The translations under genes and the position numbers were made by a program. Shown here piece after piece: positions 5,344-31,747 of a stretch of DNA of 32,000 bases. A model generated the notes under the pieces. The model worked only from the letters and a program-made list of their open reading frames with translations, searched no databases and was not told where the DNA came from. Positions within the stretch are counted from its first letter, which is position 1. Every line of letters starts with the position of its first letter. Source of the DNA: an uncultured Acidobacteriota bacterium (GTDB lineage: Bacteria; Acidobacteriota; Vicinamibacteria; Vicinamibacterales; UBA2999); assembly GCA_963751025.1 (NCBI GenBank), contig CAVVTC010000006.1:285722-317721 (forward strand). Direction: 5' to 3'.

Positions 5344-5438
5344 GGTGAGGTGGCCGAGAGGCTGAAGGCGGCGGTTTGCTAAACCGTTGTAGGGCCTTTA
5401 AAGTCCTACCCAGGGTTCGAATCCCTGCCTCACCGCCA
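5344..5438 (+). tRNA. tRNA-Ser (anticodon GCU), encoded CCA
   Basis: Hand-folded cloverleaf. The acceptor GGTGAGG pairs with CCTCACC, and the D-arm is GCC/GGC. The anticodon stem GCGGT/ACCGT carries loop TTGCTAA, giving anticodon GCT. The long variable arm GTAGGGC..GTCCTAC is typical of class II Ser tRNAs. The T-arm is CAGGG-TTCGAAT-CCCTG, followed by discriminator G and CCA. Confidence 0.93.
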
Positions 5439-12719: not shown

Positions 12720-13607
12720 TCAGCGGCCGATAGCCCCGAGCGCCCACGCGGCCTGGCGACGGACTTTGGGGCTCGAATCCTTGAGCGTCGCGGCGAGTGC
12801 GTCCATGGCGCGGCGATCGCGGATCGCGCCCAGCGCCCATGCCGCCTGCGAACGAACGGTCTCGTCCTGATCTTTCAGGGCGTTGATCAATCCGTCCACG
12901 GCCCGCGGATCGCGGATCGCGCCGAGCGCCCATGCCACCTGTGACCGGACGCCGGCGTCAGCATCGCGAAGCGCGTCGATCAGTGCGGTGACGGCGACAT
13001 CGGCATCGAGCGCGCCGAGCGCCCAGGCGGCGACGCGACGAACCGGCGGCTCGCGATCGGCGAGCGCGGCGAGGGTCGGTGTCACGCCTCGGGCATCGTC
13101 GAGTGCGCCCAGTGCCCAGACGGCGTTGCGTCGCGCGACCCACTGCGGCGCGCGCGCGGCGGTGATGAGCGACGGCAGCGACTCGGTGCCGATCGCGACG
13201 AGCGCCGCGGCGGCCTCCTCTCCTGGCGAGGTCTGTTGATCGATGTCCCGCGACCAGTAGTAGCGGTCCTCGCCGCACACCTTGGGATCAACCGGAGAGC
13301 CATCCGGCAGGCGCTCGACGAGCGCGGCGATCGCGTTGCGCGCACCGGATCCGAGACGCTGCAGATCGCACGCGGCGACTGCACGCACGCGAGGGTCGCC
13401 GTCGCGCAGCCTGGCGACGAGATCCGCCGCATCCTGATCGGCGACGTACGAGATCAGGGCTATCGCGGACGTGGACGTCAGCTGAGGCTGCCCGGGAAGC
13501 TGATGGACCAGCGAAGCGACGAGCGTCATCGCCGCGCCGATGAGCGCGACCAGCGTATCGACGGTCGATTTGAAGAACGAGACGCAGAATGGCATGACGG
13601 GCTCCAT
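12720..13607 (-). CDS. HEAT-repeat (PBS-lyase HEAT-like) protein with an N-terminal hydrophobic segment
   Basis: At least six repeats of the type D..P.VR..AAWALGAI(R)D (DREPPVRRVAAWALGALD, DADAGVRSQVAWALGAIRD, DQDETVRSQAAWALGAIRD, DSSPKVRRQAAWALGAIG). The N-terminal segment VDTLVALIGAAMTLVASLV looks like a TM anchor. Confidence 0.8.
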   Translation of the reverse strand: MEPVMPFCVSFFKSTVDTLVALIGAAMTLVASLVHQLPGQPQLTSTSAIALISYVADQDAADLVARLRDGDPRVRAVAACDLQRLGSGARNAIAALVERLPDGSPVDPKVCGEDRYYWSRDIDQQTSPGEEAAAALVAIGTESLPSLITAARAPQWVARRNAVWALGALDDARGVTPTLAALADREPPVRRVAAWALGALDADVAVTALIDALRDADAGVRSQVAWALGAIRDPRAVDGLINALKDQDETVRSQAAWALGAIRDRRAMDALAATLKDSSPKVRRQAAWALGAIGR

Positions 13608-13630: not shown

Positions 13631-13703
13631 GTAGGGGCCGCCTTGAGGTGGCCCTCGGGCCGGCTGAAGCCGGCCCCCACGTTGGAAGCCGGCCCCCACG
13701 TTG
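13631..13703. repeat. Cluster of REP-like GC hairpins (one inverted, one direct, plus a 19-bp-period tandem partial copy)
   Basis: GTAGGGGCCGCCTTGAGGTGGCCC (13631-13654) is followed by GGGCCGGC-TGAA-GCCGGCCC (13657-13676). AAGCCGGCCCCCACGTTG then occurs twice (13667-13684 and 13686-13703). The cluster fills the gap between two same-strand genes. Confidence 0.8.
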
Positions 13704-15994: not shown

Positions 15995-16020
15995 GTGCTG
16001 AGAAATTAGCACAGTGCTAA
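15995..16020. promoter_or_regulatory. Candidate BlaI operator: GTGCT-N8-AGCAC overlapping the perfect 15-bp palindrome TTAGCAC-A-GTGCTAA (16006-16020)
   Basis: Three phased GTGCT/AGCAC half-sites lie 31-56 nt upstream of the blaI-like start codon. Confidence 0.45.
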
Positions 16021-16029
16021 GAACTTGGC

Positions 16030-16065
16030 ACAGGCCGGCACGGCCTGTCAAGCGGGTTGTTTTTT
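16030..16065. terminator. Hairpin ACAGGCC-GGCAC-GGCCTGT followed by T6 (on +), just downstream of the minus-strand MBL-fusion gene
   Basis: A 7-bp stem (16030-16036/16042-16048) with a T run at 16060-16065. On the minus strand the A-run precedes the stem, so terminator function for the minus gene is uncertain. Confidence 0.3.
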
Positions 16066-23865: not shown

Positions 23866-23946
23866 TAATTCAGAATGCAGAATTCAGAATTCAGACAATG
23901 TCGGGGTCGGAGTATGTCTGCATTCTGCATTCTGAATTCAGAATTA
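23866..23946. repeat. AT-rich imperfect palindrome built from CAGAATK heptamers (intercistronic hairpin element)
   Basis: TAATT-CAGAATG-CAGAATT-CAGAATT-CAGACA, then an 18-nt centre, then GTCTG-CATTCTG-CATTCTG-AATTCAGAATTA. The arms pair at 27 of 31 positions by hand alignment. The element overlaps the TAA stop (23944-23946) of the upstream cistron. Confidence 0.85.
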
Positions 23947-28189: not shown

Positions 28190-28845
28190 ATGCGGAGCAG
28201 ATCGCTCGGGCTCGTCGTCGTCGTCGCATCGGTCGCGGTGCGTCTGCGGGGCAATCCAGACTGCCATCGGACATTCATCCAGAGTCGCTCTCTCGCCTGC
28301 CTCCGCTGCAGCGCGACGCACTGGACGCTGCGGGCAAGCGGATTGGGACGCGTCGGCGGGCGGCCGCGGGATGCCGAAGCACCGGTCCGGCGCCGGTCTC
28401 GATGTACAGTCCCGGGAGTCGCCGGGCCCGATTCACGATCTCAATCAGTACCTGCGGAAGACCGTGGCTGGCAGCCGCTACTTCGAGCTGTCGGCGCTCA
28501 TCGCCGCACGTGAATTCGATCAGCAGTACCGAATGGTCGGGCCACGAACCAGCCGGGGCTGAAGCGCCGGGCTCGAGCAATCGGTGATCGACGTCGTCAA
28601 GTTCAACAAGGACGTCGCCGGGCTGTCAGAGAAGGATGCGACCGTGATTCGGCTCGGTCGCGCGACTGTTCCGCGATCACAAGGTGAGCTCGGAGCTGTG
28701 GGCAAAGACCGTCGAGTTCTTCGGACGTCAGGGCGCCATCGAGATCGTGGCGACGATGGGCGACTACGCGATGGCCGGCTTCATGCTGACGGCCGTCGAT
28801 CAGCAGCTACCGGCGGATCGGAAGCCGATGCTGCCGGTGAAGTAA
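28190..28845 (+). pseudogene. Carboxymuconolactone decarboxylase (CMD/AhpD-like) family protein with a signal-like N-terminus; at least four frame breaks as read
   Basis: ATG 28190 follows GGAGA and gives MRSRSLGLVVVVASVAV. Pieces in different frames: LPPLQRDALDAAGKRI, YLRKTVAGSRYFELSALIAAREFDQQY, VIDVVKFNKDVAGLSEKDATVIRLGRA and ELWAKTVEFFGRQGAIEIVATMGDYAMAGFMLTAVDQQLP. The stop is TAA 28843-28845. Confidence 0.65.
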
Positions 28846-28847
28846 GC

Positions 28848-28993
28848 GGTCCTTGGTCCTTTGTTCTTGGTGCCTGGTCCGTCCTATGGTCCCTGGTCCG
28901 TCCGAGGTCCTTGGTTCGTGGTCCTTCGGACCCAGGACCAAGGACGGACCAGGCCCCAGGACGGACGAAGAACCAAGGCCCAAGGACCAGGGA
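28848..28993. repeat. 146-bp GGTCC/GGACC-rich imperfect palindrome filling the gap between convergent genes
   Basis: The left arm is rich in GGTCC, with CCTGGTCCGTCC occurring twice (28873-28884, 28892-28903). The centre is GGTCC-TTC-GGACC (28920-28932). The right arm carries the reverse complements GGACGGACCAGG (28942-28953), ACCAAGGAC (28937-28945) and CCAAGGACC (28980-28988). Confidence 0.85.
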
Positions 28994-30627
28994 CTAATTA
29001 GCGCGTGCGGCGCGCGTGGCGGTCGAGTTCTTGCCGGTGTTCAGCAGCTGCGCGGCCTCGCCGAAGTAGTTGAGCGCGAACTGCAGCTGCGGGTCCTGCT
29101 TCGCGAGCTTCTCGTACACCCGTGCCGCGCCGAAGAGATCGAGGTCGATCTCCTTCTGCATCATCGCCGTGATGTATGGCAGGTCGGTCTTCCAGCCCGC
29201 CTCGTCGAACCGCATCGGTGCCTGCATGACGAGCTGCCTGAACTCGTTGAGCATCTCATCGGTCACCTGATAGCCGGCGGCGACCTCGCGCCTCGCTGCG
29301 GACGAGGTCAGCGTGACGCGGGCGTCGCCCTGACGCGTGAATCGCCGGGCATAGACGTCGAACAGACCGCGCGCGGTGATCGTGCGGGCGAAGCGACCGG
29401 GGTTGAAGCCTTCGGTCGGGCCGTCGAATCGTCGATCAGGCTCGACGCCGCCGCCGCTGTACACCTTCCGGCCCGCGTCGGTGTATTCGAGATCCTCGGC
29501 CCTGTGCGTCTTGTTGGCGTCCTGATCGCGAATCGTGTAGGTCAGGTAGTCGTCGAAGGTGCCGTCCCACGGACGCTGAATCAGCCGGCCGCTCGGTGTG
29601 TAGTACCGCGCGGTCGTGATCAGCGCCGCGGCGCCGCGGCTGAGGCGATAGACCGACTGCACGAGCGCCTTGCCGAACGTCGTCTCACCGATGACCAGCG
29701 ATCGATCGTGATCCTGCAGGGCTCCTGAGACGATCTCCGATGCGCTCGCGCTCGAGCGGTTCACGAGCGTGATCATCGGCACCGTCAGGTAGTCGCTGCG
29801 CTCCTGGGCGCGATAGTCCTGATCGGATCCGTTGACGCGGCCGCGCGTGTAGACGACCAGGTCGCCCTTGGGCAGGAAGCGGCTCGAGACCAGGATGGCC
29901 TGATCGAGCGCGCCGCCGGGGTTGCCGCGCAGGTCGAACACCAGGCGCTTCATGCCGCGCTTGGTGAGATCGCCCAGCGCGCGACCGAGCTCGCGGTCGC
30001 TGTTCTCGGCGAACTCGGTGAGCTTGATGTAGCCGGTGGTCTCGTCGAGCATGACCGCCGCGGTCACCGTCGGGATGTGCACCTCGTCACGCCGGACGCG
30101 AAGGTCGATCAGCTGCTCGTAGCCGCCGCGCCTGAGCGAGATGTCCACGAACGTGCCGCGGGGCCCTTGAGGCGGCCGACCGTCTGCTCGCTGGTCCAGC
30201 CCTTGGTGTTCTCGCGCTCGATCCTGGCGATGACATCGCCGCGGCGGAGCCCGCTCTCGAACGCCGGCGAGTTCTCGAAGACGGAGGCAACGATGACGTC
30301 GCCGTTGATCACCTGGATGGTGATGCCGAGCCCGTAGTACCGCCCTTCCTGTCGCTCGCGCGTCTGCGCGTATGAGCGGGGATCCATGAAGCTCGAGTGC
30401 GGGTCGAGCGTCTGCAGCAGGCCGGTGATTGCGCTGTAGACGATCCGGTCGGATTCGACGTCGCCGACGTAGACGTCCTCGATGGCGCGGAGGCCGGCGG
30501 TGAAGACCTTGTATTGCTCGGAGACCTGATCCTGGGCGGAAAGCGCGGTGTGTCCGAAATACGCGCCGGCGCAGGCACACAACGCAATGATGATGGCCGC
30601 CGCCGGAAGGGATCGATATCTGGGCAT
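28994..30627 (-). CDS. S41-family C-terminal processing peptidase (Ctp/Tsp-like) with a PDZ domain; one frame break at 30160-30163
   Basis: N-terminal anchor and PDZ region (YYGLGITIQVINGDVIVASVFENSPAFESGLRRGDVIARI). After the break comes the S41 core (RLVFDLRGNPGGALDQA, VPMITLVNRSSASASEIVSGALQDHDRSLVIGETTFGKALVQ). Confidence 0.9.
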
Positions 30628-30681: not shown

Positions 30682-30781
30682 AAGTCTATCGAGTCTGAGG
30701 GATCGGCGGCTGGGCGTCAGCCGTCGTCTGGTGAGAGGCCAGGGTCCCGGCGGGCTGGGGAATTCGCAGTAGACTGCGTTT

Positions 30782-31747
30782 TTGCGGTTTGATTCCGTCC
30801 TGATCGTGTCGTTCGGCGGTCCCCAGGGCCCGCCGACATCCGCCCGTTTCTGGCCAACGTGCTGCGCGGGCGGCGGGTCAGCCCGAGCGCGTCGAGGAAG
30901 TGGCCCGTCATTACGAGCTGTTCGGCGGCGTGTCGCCGATCACCGAGATCACGAGGCGACAGGCGGAGGGTCTGCGGGACGCGGCTCGCGGCGATGCGGG
31001 CAGCCGCTGCCGGTCTACGTCGGCATGCGCAACTGGCATCCGCTGCTGGCCGACACGCTTCGCGAGATGCACGACGCGGGCGTGCGCCGCGCGATCGGGT
31101 TCATCGCCGCGGCGCAGCATTCCTATTCGAGCTGCCAGCAGTACCGCGAGAACGTCGCCGCCGCGCGGGCCGAGCTGCGACGCGACGGCGCGCGACGTCG
31201 ACGTGACCTTCGCCGGCAGCTGGTTCGATCATCCGCTGTTCATCGCGGCCAACGCCGCGCACGTGCGTGAGGCGCTCGCGCGACTGCCCGAGCCGGTGCG
31301 GGCCGAGGCGCGCATCGTGTTCACCGCGCACAGCATTCCCACCAGCGATGGCCGAGCGTCGCGATATCGGGAGCAGCTCGCAGATCGTCGCGGCTCGTGG
31401 CCGCGGCGGCCGGCATGCGCGACTGGGCGCTCGTGTATCAGAGCCGCAGCGGCCGGCCCGAGAGATCCGTGGCTCGAGCCGGACGTCTGCGATTACCTGC
31501 GGCAGGCCCGCGCCGAGGGACTGGCGGCGGCGGTGCTCTGCCCGATCGGCTTCGTCTGCGATCACATCGAGGTGCTCTACGACCTCGATCACGAGGCGGC
31601 CGCGATGTGTGCCGAGAGATCGGCCTGCCCATGACCCGCGCCGAGGCGGTCAACGACGATCCGCTGTTTCTCGACATGATGGCGGACGTCGTCATGGCGA
31701 CGATCCGGCGCTATGAGCGGGGAAGACCGCTCCCGTTTTCTTTGTGA
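30782..31747 (+). pseudogene. hemH: Ferrochelatase; many frame breaks as read
   Basis: Ordered hemH blocks lie in alternating frames: FDSVLIVSFGGPQGP, HYELFGGVSPITEITRRQAEGL, PVYVGMRNWHPLLADTLREMHDAGVRRAIGFIAA, VTFAGSWFDHPLFIAANAAHV, RIVFTAHSIP, WALVYQSRSG, PWLEPDVCDYL, LCPIGFVCDHIEVLYDLDHEA and DDPLFLDMMADVV. Confidence 0.85.

What the first reader, a model, noticed from the sequence alone, without database searches (positions are those of the whole stretch)
28848..28993. 146-bp GGTCC-rich imperfect palindrome occupying the whole gap between convergent genes
The spacer between the CMD-family stop (28845) and the S41 peptidase stop (28994) is one long inverted repeat made of GGTCC/GGACC units. 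The left arm has CCTGGTCCGTCC twice, 19 nt apart. The centre is GGTCC-TTC-GGACC. The right arm carries the exact reverse complement GGACGGACCAGG plus ACCAAGGAC and CCAAGGACC, with several bulges. It is far larger than an ordinary terminator. Its sub-repeat structure suggests a mobile or expandable element (MITE/REP-like) acting as a bidirectional terminator. It also generates spurious GPRTKDQ-type ORFs.
Basis: seen in the sequence. Interest (0 to 1): 0.65.

Follow-up and report, generated by a model that had tools for sequence, protein, structure and literature searches.

The report
Heptamer-built palindromic repeat between convergent genes
The 146-base gap between two convergent genes is a real, very stable hairpin built from 7-base units; it belongs to a scattered repeat family of soil Acidobacteria (order Vicinamibacterales) that sits at gene ends, a new example of a known kind of bacterial repeat.

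Summary
Window 28848-28993 is a long imperfect palindrome (RNA fold -105 kcal/mol, z = -10.8). Its left arm is about 12 copies of GGTCCTT and its right arm mirrors them as AAGGACC. It runs from 2 nt after one stop codon up to the other.

It is not a one-off. Orthologous loci in three relatives carry the same element with unit-sized length differences. Sister lineages instead have an 11-25 nt spacer, a hairpin built from a different heptamer, or nothing.

A scan of reference genomes found the same arm, with the same order of variant units (GGTCCTT-GGTGCTT-GGTTCTT-GGTCCGTCC), at 15 or more unrelated loci in Vicinamibacterales genomes. Unit order beats all 119 permutations.

Hairpins of this build, with many different heptamers, are common in Acidobacteriota, Planctomycetota, Gemmatimonadota and Bacteroidota. 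They lie almost only at gene 3' ends (convergent 16, tandem 11, divergent 0). The window holds a second one at 23866-23943.

There is no target-site duplication, no GTAG tag, no U-tract and no Rfam match. The two arms of a copy do not co-evolve.

Best reading: a REPIN/MITE-like dispersed palindrome whose arms change by heptamer slippage, probably a bidirectional 3'-end RNA hairpin. That function is inferred, not shown. The closest precedent is the Xanthomonas GGGAATC inverted heptamer arrays.

The parts
28848..28924 (.). Left arm: about 11-12 degenerate 7-nt units (GGTCCTT GGTCCTT TGTTCTT GGTGCCT GGTCCGT CC.. GGTCCCT GGTCCGT CC.. GGTCCTT GGTTCGT GGTCC). It starts 2 nt after the stop codon of the + strand gene.
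   Evidence: Sequence; TRF period 7, 12.0 copies, 28848-28926; arm profile hit 28846-28902, E 8.6e-12.
28925..28927 (.). Centre of symmetry (TTC within GGTCC-TTC-GGACC). The predicted apical loop is 8 nt.
   Evidence: I6: arms 28907-28924/28928-28945, 3 nt apart.
28928..28993 (.). Right arm: the mirrored units (..GGACC CAGGACC AAGGACG GACCAGG ... GAAGAAC CAAGGCC CAAGGAC CAGGGAC). Read on the - strand it is AGTCCCT GGTCCTT GGGCCTT GGTTCTT CGTCCGT CC, which is the family consensus order.
   Evidence: period 7, GGACCAA, 28963-28994; profile hit 28997-28952.
28994..30627 (-). S41 / C-terminal processing peptidase gene (PDZ + Peptidase_S41). Its TAG stop (28994-28996) is fused to the first unit of the element. 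The reading frame is broken near 30130 in this assembly.
   Evidence: intact 543-544 aa orthologues.
28371..28845 (+). Small convergent gene of unknown family (orthologues 215-217 aa), split over three frames here. Its stop TAA is at 28843-28845.
   Evidence: tblastn of the three pieces to L001-L017; no family match.
23866..23943 (.). Second hairpin of the same build with another heptamer (AATTCAG/AATGCAG x4, loop, CTGCATT/CTGAATT x4). It lies inside an operon, between the molybdopterin-binding subunit gene (stop 23944-23946, - strand) and the FAD-binding subunit gene (start 23850). It is absent from the same site in L001 and L002.
   Evidence: RNA fold -32.2 kcal/mol, z -6.2.

Best explanation
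The spacer is one copy of a dispersed family of long palindromic repeats found in Vicinamibacterales (Acidobacteriota). Each arm is a short array of degenerate heptamers in a fixed order: (A/G)GTCCyT, GGTCCTT, GGkSCTT, GGTTCTT, sGTCCGT-CC, then a variable number of nnGGTCC units. The second arm is the mirror image.

The element sits directly against the stop codons of two convergent genes. Transcribed from either side, it folds into an imperfect RNA hairpin with arms of about 70 nt.

Most likely role (inferred): a two-way 3'-end structure that stalls or ends transcription without a U-tract and blocks 3'-to-5' exonucleases, as REP/BIME and Correia-type repeats do.

Most likely origin (partly shown): copies spread between loci by an unknown mechanism that leaves no target-site duplication, either REPIN-like or by recombination. 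Once in place, the arms grow, shrink and are lost by slippage of heptamer units.
For: Shown:
- Hairpin stability far beyond shuffles on both strands.
- 7-nt unit structure.
- The same element at the orthologous junction in L001, L003 and L016, differing mainly by indels of about 7 to 26 nt.
- The same arm at other loci in 15 or more Vicinamibacterales/Acidobacteriota genomes. Their flanks are unrelated to each other except for one pair, and none carries S41 or the neighbouring gene.
- Unit order is conserved. The real order of the S41-side arm gives 12 unlinked loci at 30/37 matches or better, against a mean of 2.8 and a maximum of 9 over 119 permutations. The other arm matches L142 at 35/37.
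- Two or more copies occur in single genomes (L142 has two within 8 kb; L091 and L171 come from one MAG).
- Position: hairpins of this build lie convergent 16, tandem 11, divergent 0, and 65 of 83 adjacent gene ends are 3' ends. Stop codons are usually 0-10 nt from the first unit.
- Substitutions in aligned columns are fewer than at third codon positions of the adjacent gene (0.92 against 0.71 for L003; 0.90 against 0.65 for L016). The element is far better conserved than the S41 upstream intergenic region.

Inferred: the RNA-level role, by analogy with REP and Correia elements (established knowledge) and with the Xanthomonas heptamer arrays, which lie on average 28 nt after the upstream ORF (PMC4692102).
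Against: - No U-tract after either arm, and the simple terminator scan does not call it.
- No transcript data.
- The element is dispensable. Its closest relatives have an 11-nt (L209), 18-nt (L004) or 25-nt (L210) spacer, or overlapping stop codons (L017), at the same junction.
- The two arms of a copy are no more alike than arms of different copies (0.705 against 0.73), so there is no sign of compensatory evolution keeping the stem paired.
- No sense/antisense folding bias in tandem contexts (5 against 6).
- The second hairpin lies inside an operon, where a strong terminator would be harmful.
- Copy number in the source genome is unknown, and only one copy was seen in 32 kb.
- No transposase link was tested.
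- Conservation estimates on repeat arrays are flattered by alignment freedom, and the window/L001 flanks are themselves 0.9-1.0 identical.
Confidence: 0.55

Rival explanations
1. A locally grown hairpin. A short ordinary terminator-like stem at this junction expanded in place by heptamer slippage, and each expansion was mirrored into the other arm by template switching across the quasi-palindrome. No movement between loci is involved.
For: - Heptamer copy number varies between close relatives at this very junction (CCAGCTA x1.5 in L209, x2.5 in L004, nnGGCTA x4 in L210).
- Orthologous GGTCC elements differ by unit-sized indels.
- Dozens of different heptamers form such hairpins, several per 8-kb locus.
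- At two sites a relative carries only a short plain hairpin where another carries a long array (L015 at this junction; L001 against L003 downstream of the pirin gene).
- The arrays always fill the gap exactly up to the stop codons.
- An excess of heptamer simple repeats in bacteria is attributed to polymerase slippage (cited in PMC4692102 and PMC4679880).
Against: - The same ordered series of variant units recurs at 15 or more unrelated loci in different genomes, and no permutation of the units does as well. Independent local growth does not predict this.
- The two arms of a copy are not more alike than arms from other copies, which argues against ongoing arm-to-arm templating.
Confidence: 0.2
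2. Selfish or neutral DNA with no role for the host. On this reading the element is a decaying palindromic parasite, tolerated only where it does no harm (after stop codons), and its hairpin is a by-product.
For: - Presence/absence among close relatives, with loss in sister lineages and no replacement hairpin.
- No arm co-evolution, and arm divergence resembles a star phylogeny.
- No sense-strand folding bias.
- The 3'-end bias can be explained by purifying selection against insertions in promoters and coding sequence.
Against: - Retained across lineages whose S41 third codon positions are 29-35% diverged, with fewer substitutions than those sites.
- Much better conserved than a neighbouring intergenic region.
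- Strong enrichment between convergent genes, beyond mere avoidance of divergent spacers (16 of 27 against about 25% expected).
Confidence: 0.15
3. A protein-binding array. On this reading the repeated heptamers are binding sites, on DNA (nucleoid protein or gyrase, as at BIMEs) or on single-stranded RNA (for example cold-shock-domain proteins, which bind about one heptamer each), and the hairpin competes with binding.
For: - Each arm stays close to a family consensus rather than to its partner arm, which fits constraint on sequence rather than on pairing.
- The fixed order of variant units is conserved.
- Binding of heptamer direct repeats by CspB is cited in PMC4679880.
Against: - The heptamer sequence is free to differ between hairpins in the same genome, which a single sequence-specific binder does not explain.
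- No candidate protein was identified.
- GGWCC is not otherwise unusual in these genomes (observed/expected 0.86).
Confidence: 0.1

Closest known systems
Xanthomonas GGGAATC heptameric repeats in inverted pairs (Rehm et al. 2015, PMC4692102)
   Same: - Tandem 7-nt units, perfect or degenerate.
- In 70-75 cases per genome, two arrays lie in convergent orientation on opposite strands and can form a stem-loop.
- About 90% are intergenic and lie close to the end of the upstream ORF (average 28 nt).
- They are dispersed over the chromosome.
- Array length differs between related species.
   Different: - Different unit and phylum.
- The Xanthomonas unit carries a G-tract and was studied for G-quadruplex formation, whereas GGTCCTT has no G3 run.
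- The family here has a fixed order of distinct variant units along the arm, i.e. a defined element rather than a homogeneous array.
- Copy number per genome is not known here.
REP / BIME / REPIN elements with RAYT transposases (PMC3116915, PMC3733652)
   Same: - Extragenic imperfect palindromes, dispersed.
- No target-site duplication.
- Concentrated after genes and between convergent genes.
- REPINs are inverted doublets that fold into one long hairpin.
- Proposed roles are termination, mRNA stabilisation and protein binding.
   Different: - REPs are 20-40 nt units with a GTAG or CGTC tag. This element has neither, and its ends read (A/G)GTCCyTGG.
- REPs have no heptamer substructure.
- A RAYT link was not tested here.
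Bacterial MITEs such as Correia/NEMIS and ERIC
   Same: - 100-200 nt, non-coding, with terminal inverted repeats.
- Fold into RNA hairpins.
- Can supply stop codons or terminators.
- Show presence/absence between strains.
   Different: - MITEs have target-site duplications (TA for Correia) and a unique internal part. Here there is no duplication and the whole element is the inverted repeat.
- No parent insertion sequence is known.
Cyanobacterial STRR heptanucleotide repeats and TAACTGA repeats (PMC4679880; Calothrix repeats as cited in PMC4692102)
   Same: - Intergenic arrays of 7-nt units.
- Several different heptamers per genome.
- Patchy distribution across phyla.
   Different: - Mostly direct arrays. 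TAACTGA repeats lie upstream of start codons, and only one indirect set was reported.
- They are not long hairpins at 3' ends.
Intrinsic (Rho-independent) bidirectional terminators
   Same: A G+C-rich stem-loop directly after two convergent stop codons.
   Different: - Arms of about 70 nt instead of a 5-20 bp stem.
- No U-tract on either side.
- Internal repeats and bulges.

Membership tests
Inverted heptamer-array pairs (Xanthomonas GGGAATC type) | Tandem repeats with a 7-nt unit | tested here: met
   TRF period 7, 12.0 copies (28848-28926) and 4.6 copies (28963-28994).
Inverted heptamer-array pairs (Xanthomonas GGGAATC type) | Two arrays of complementary units close together on opposite strands | tested here: met
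   (GGTCCTT | GGACCAA, gap 2).
Inverted heptamer-array pairs (Xanthomonas GGGAATC type) | Intergenic, close to the 3' end of the upstream ORF | tested here: met
   0-2 nt from both stop codons. Across the class: 3' ends 65 against 5' ends 18.
Inverted heptamer-array pairs (Xanthomonas GGGAATC type) | Many copies dispersed in one genome | tested here: inconclusive
   One copy in the 32-kb window. Two or more copies in some related MAGs (L142; L091+L171).
Inverted heptamer-array pairs (Xanthomonas GGGAATC type) | G-tract in each unit (G-quadruplex potential) | tested here: not met
   The unit GGTCCTT has no run of three G.
REP / REPIN | 20-40 nt imperfect palindrome with a conserved GTAG or CGTC tag at one end | tested here: not met
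   Ends of 17 copies aligned: (A/G)GTCCyTGG, with no GTAG/CGTC tag.
REP / REPIN | Extragenic and dispersed at many loci | tested here: met
   15 or more loci with unrelated flanks across genomes. Within-genome number not measured.
REP / REPIN | Associated single-copy RAYT (Y1 transposase) gene flanked by the repeats | not tested
   No whole genome is held. Class 3 TnpA-Y1 genes are reported in Acidobacteria and Planctomycetes (PMC6006769), but no link was examined.
MITE | Target-site duplication flanking the element | tested here: not met
   No direct repeat or conserved flank at 17 copies. Filled/empty comparison at 23866-23943 shows none beyond a possible TA.
MITE | Small non-coding element with terminal inverted repeats | tested here: met
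   85-168 nt, and the whole element is an inverted repeat.
MITE | Parent insertion sequence with the same terminal repeats | not tested
   Not searched; no transposase was seen in the parts of the window that were annotated.
Intrinsic terminator | Stem-loop followed by a U-tract | tested here: not met
   Not called by the terminator scan. The tails are UAAUUAGC (+) and GCUUACUUC (-).
Any Rfam family | Covariance-model match at the gathering score | tested here: not met
   No match at gathering score. Only sub-threshold matches to miRNA-precursor hairpins.

The most novel reading that the evidence does not exclude
Hairpins made of two mirrored heptamer arrays may be a widespread class of 3'-end element that no paper in the searched library describes for these phyla, shared by several soil phyla (Acidobacteriota, Planctomycetota, Gemmatimonadota, Bacteroidota, and their phages). 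On this reading the 7-nt period is the invariant and the unit sequence is free. One common process would generate them: heptamer slippage plus mirroring across the stem, or a dedicated enzyme. They would serve as the main factor-independent transcript-end structure in genomes that lack U-tract terminators. The GGTCC family would then be one lineage that has also become able to spread between loci.
Probability: 0.25. Interest if true: 0.65.

Novelty: new member of a known kind. Interest (0 to 1): 0.4.

Why it matters
Vicinamibacterales are among the most abundant soil bacteria and are barely cultured, and how their transcripts end is unknown. A defined, easily recognised repeat that marks gene 3' ends would have several uses:
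- It would help gene calling, because the element creates spurious ORFs and can supply stop codons.
- It would help define operon boundaries.
- Unit number varies between close relatives, so it could serve for strain typing.
- It offers a natural system for asking why 7 nt is the favoured repeat unit in bacteria.

If the element really ends transcripts in both directions without a U-tract, it would add a terminator type for high-G+C phyla. If it does not, it is another selfish palindrome family, which is ordinary.

Tried and rejected
- **Restriction-site cluster.** GGWCC is the AvaII-type site, so I tested whether it is avoided elsewhere. It is not: observed/expected 0.86, rank 71 of 439 pentamers. 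Rejected.
- **Known RNA family.** No Rfam match at gathering score. A relaxed search gave only sub-threshold matches to miRNA-precursor hairpins.
- **Classical MITE.** No target-site duplication or conserved flank at 17 copies.
- **Selection on pairing.** The two arms of a copy are no more alike than arms from different copies. Sense and antisense strands fold equally well in tandem contexts. So no RNA-specific signal was found.
- **Carriage on phages.** Five hits in viral contigs, some of them heptamer hairpins, none of this family.
- **Reaching more of the source contig.** The look-up of the window's own protein returned nothing, so copy number in the source genome stayed out of reach.
- **'CMD family' label.** Pfam, NCBIfam and PDB sequence searches of the intact orthologue were all negative. 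I ran no further search on it.
- **Conservation above the synonymous rate.** This looked strong for window against L001 (0.993 against 0.869). The sliding profile shows the local flanks are also 0.9-1.0 identical, so I downgraded it to suggestive.

Full report
**1. The observation**

The sequence is as described. Between the stop of a small + strand gene (TAA, 28843-28845) and the stop of an S41 C-terminal processing peptidase gene on the - strand (TAG, 28994-28996) lies a 148-nt spacer that is one long imperfect palindrome. The repeat finder gives arms 28849-28885/28958-28994 (37 nt, 81% complementary) and 28887-28918/28927-28958 (32 nt, 81%) around the centre GGTCC-TTC-GGACC.

As RNA, the + strand folds at -105.1 kcal/mol, against -59.9 +/- 4.2 for dinucleotide-preserving shuffles (z -10.8). 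The - strand folds at -99.2 (z -9.3). As DNA the value is -51.9 (z -8.6). No shuffle reaches these values.

Tandem Repeats Finder shows that the sub-repeat is a heptamer: GGTCCTT x12 on the left, GGACCAA on the right. It is the only GGWCC cluster in the window. The spurious ORFs through it exist.

The S41 stop codon TAG is fused to the terminal unit (TAG|TCCCTGG).

The 'CMD family' name for the neighbouring gene could not be confirmed. The window copy is broken into three frames, and the intact 215-aa orthologue has no Pfam, NCBIfam or PDB sequence match.

**2. The same junction in relatives**

The S41 protein has many close relatives in soil metagenomes. I fetched their loci and read the junction. 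The states found are:

| State at the S41 junction | Loci |
|---|---|
| Same GGTCC hairpin | L001 (94% aa), L003 (91%), L016 (85%; one arm largely deleted) |
| Short direct array of another heptamer | L209 (96%; 11 nt, CCAGCTA x1.5), L004 (95%; 18 nt, x2.5), L210/L211 (94%; 25 nt, nnGGCTA x4) |
| 90-nt hairpin of GGTGGTT units | L011 |
| GTGGTTA array with a short right arm | L006 |
| GGTGGTT-type hairpin next to the same small gene, with an extra gene between it and S41 | L005 |
| 26-nt plain hairpin | L015 |
| No spacer; the two stop codons overlap (TTAG) | L017 |

Among L001, L003 and L016, the differences from the window copy are mostly indels of about 7 to 26 nt.

On a neighbour-joining tree of the last 780 nt of S41, the hairpin is present in the window, L001 and L003 but absent from their sisters L004/L209 and L210. 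That implies at least two losses, or exchange by recombination, or repeated gain. The element is therefore old enough to be shared, variable in length, and dispensable.

**3. It is a dispersed family**

I scanned one genome per species (GTDB set) for GGTCCNNGGTCC, 0-30 nt, GGACCNNGGACC. Two kinds of hit appear:
- short perfect hairpins in actinomycetes, which are ordinary;
- long heptamer-array hairpins in Acidobacteriota (Vicinamibacterales, Pyrinomonadaceae, Thermoanaerobaculia, Solibacteraceae), Planctomycetota, Gemmatimonadaceae, Chitinophagaceae and others.

None of these loci carries S41 or its neighbour.

In the Vicinamibacterales / 'gp6' / uncultured Acidobacteriota genomes, the arms align over about 48 nt. 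They share the same series of variant units: (A/G)GTCCyT GGTCCTT GGkSCTT GGTTCTT sGTCCGT CC, followed by nnGGTCC units.

I tested whether unit order, not just unit content, is shared.
- The real order of the window's S41-side arm finds 12 unlinked loci at 30/37 matches or better, against a mean of 2.8 and a maximum of 9 over all 119 permutations.
- The other arm matches L142 at 35/37, and its top-10 mean exceeds all 59 distinct permutations.

Flanks of 18 copies are unrelated by tblastx, except for one pair. Some genomes show two or more copies: L142 has two within 8 kb, and L091 and L171 come from one MAG.

Copies are 85-168 nt long and have no target-site duplication, no conserved flank and no GTAG/CGTC tag.

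**4. The wider class**

A unit-agnostic screen of all 1.7 Mb held looked for TRF period-7 arrays followed within 120 nt by the complementary array. It found 71 such pairs with many different heptamers, several per 8-kb locus in some genomes (five in L094).

The window itself has a second one at 23866-23943: AATTCAG/AATGCAG x4, a loop, then the mirror (RNA -32.2 kcal/mol, z -6.2). It lies inside an operon, between the molybdopterin-binding and FAD-binding subunit genes of a xanthine-dehydrogenase-family enzyme. L001 and L002 have only 13-34 nt at the same site.

L003 has a 215-nt array downstream of a pirin gene, where L001 has a plain GC hairpin.

With a crude GC3-based gene call, the pairs lie convergent 16, tandem 11, divergent 0. 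Of 83 adjacent gene ends, 65 are 3' ends (similar). If intergenic spacers occurred in the proportions 1:2:1, zero divergent among 27 would have probability about 4e-4.

**5. What it does**

Position and stability point to a transcript 3'-end structure that works in both directions. It is not a canonical intrinsic terminator: neither arm is followed by a U-tract. The window shows no excess of canonical terminators over shuffles either.

Evidence for constraint:
- Identity in aligned columns to L003 and L016 is 0.92 and 0.90, against 0.71 and 0.65 at third codon positions of S41.
- The S41 upstream intergenic region is almost unalignable between the window and L003, apart from a 23-nt motif.

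Caveats on that evidence: alignments of repeats are forgiving. For L001, the local flanks are as similar as the element.

Evidence against selection on pairing or on one RNA strand:
- Arms of one copy are no more alike than arms of different copies (0.705 against 0.73).
- Sense and antisense strands fold equally well.
- Close relatives do without the element.

I therefore commit to a REPIN/MITE-like dispersed palindrome that probably acts as a two-way RNA 3'-end hairpin (terminator and/or exonuclease block). Family membership is shown; the function is inferred. Length change by heptamer slippage is shown by the orthologue comparisons and by copy-number differences of other heptamers at the same junction.

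**6. Comparison with what is known**

- **Xanthomonas GGGAATC heptamer repeats** are the closest precedent. There are about 185 arrays per genome, 70-75 of them in inverted pairs able to form stem-loops. About 90% are intergenic, they lie on average 28 nt after the upstream ORF, and their lengths differ between species (PMC4692102).
- **Heptamers in general** are the over-represented long simple-repeat unit in bacteria, and polymerase slippage is the usual explanation (as cited in PMC4692102 and PMC4679880).
- **REP/REPIN elements** share the location, the lack of target duplication and the hairpin. They are defined by a tagged 20-40 nt unit and a RAYT gene. The first is not met here and the second is untested.
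- **Class 3 Y1 transposases** with atypical hairpins are reported in Acidobacteria and Planctomycetes (PMC6006769). That is a lead, not a link.
- **This family.** I found no description of it in the searchable literature.

**7. Verdict**

It is a new member of a known kind, of moderate interest. The wider pattern, mirrored heptamer arrays as a general 3'-end element across soil phyla, is the part most worth following up.

**Caveat on data quality**

Many genes in this window and in L001 are frameshifted (S41, ferrochelatase, the small neighbouring gene). This suggests an error-prone long-read assembly, so single-base bulges in the hairpin should not be over-read.

Noticed in passing
window 23866-23943: A second mirrored heptamer-array hairpin (AATTCAG/AATGCAG units, A+T-rich in a 66% G+C genome). 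It lies inside an operon, between the MoCo-binding and FAD-binding subunit genes of a xanthine-dehydrogenase-family enzyme. The close relatives L001 and L002 lack it at this site.
   Followed up: yes
window 30100-30160, 30782-31634, 28371-28845; also L001 and L002 gene tables: Several genes are split by frameshifts: S41 peptidase near 30130, ferrochelatase, and the small gene next to the hairpin. Relatives from the same ENA project show split genes too. The likely cause is long-read indel errors rather than pseudogenes, so 1-nt bulges in the hairpin may be artefacts.
   Followed up: partly
window 30684-30706 (- strand): A 23-nt motif, CCGATCCCTCAGACTCGATAGAC, in the divergent spacer between ferrochelatase and S41. 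It is identical in the window, L001 and L003 while the rest of the spacer has diverged. It is possibly a promoter or operator.
   Followed up: partly
L003 14283-14500: A 215-nt array of about 16-nt units (GGGACCTCAGGCCTCT) bracketed by inverted ends, downstream of a pirin gene. L001 has only a plain hairpin (GGGCCGCC..GGCGGCCC) at the same site.
   Followed up: partly
L004 3021-3045, L209 2187-2197, L210 1782-1806: At the same S41 junction, the closest relatives carry direct arrays of CCAGCTA/nnGGCTA heptamers with 1.5, 2.5 and 4 units. The last CTA serves as the stop codon (TAG on the other strand) of the convergent gene. The same heptamer forms a full hairpin at L146 3051-3128.
   Followed up: partly
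L010, L012, L013, L018-L024, L026, L027: about 100-200 nt after the S41 stop: In more distant relatives, S41 is followed by a conserved non-coding block (..CCCAAAATATAGTGGTG..CTTGCCAC..N..TTAGACTG..) just upstream of a gene that starts MRLERLEI.GFKSF (SMC-like). It looks like a conserved promoter with TTGCC at -35 and TAGACT at -10.
   Followed up: no
L009 6486-6530, L014 6347-6408, L023 2334-2440: In other Acidobacteria, the S41 stop is followed by short GC-rich palindromes of the type (GTAG)GGGCCGCC-TNCAGG-CGGCCCC. These resemble GTAG-tagged REP sequences.
   Followed up: no
window 29373-29455 (+): ARAGORN calls a tRNA-Phe inside the S41 coding region, on the opposite strand. Rfam does not call it, so it is probably a false positive. 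The tRNA-Ser (GCT) at 5344-5438 is found by both tools.
   Followed up: partly
window 13666-13703, 15995-16033, 12800-12982: Three other repeats from TRF:
- a perfect 19-nt tandem duplication (GAAGCCGGCCCCCACGTTG x2);
- a tandem pair of a 19-nt palindromic unit (GTGCTAAGAAATTAGCACA), which looks like an operator;
- a 93-nt tandem repeat x2 at 75% identity.
   Followed up: no
L200 (CAZOIK010000457.1): This contig carries a typical Vicinamibacterales GGTCC-family hairpin but is labelled as part of an 'uncultured Bifidobacteriaceae' MAG. It is probably mis-binned.
   Followed up: no
L205 2700-2830, L208 8800-8900 (IMG/VR viral contigs): High-G+C viral contigs also carry mirrored heptamer hairpins (GGTCCCC/AGTCCAA, GGTCCGA types) between genes. 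Phages of these hosts therefore use the same kind of structure.
   Followed up: partly
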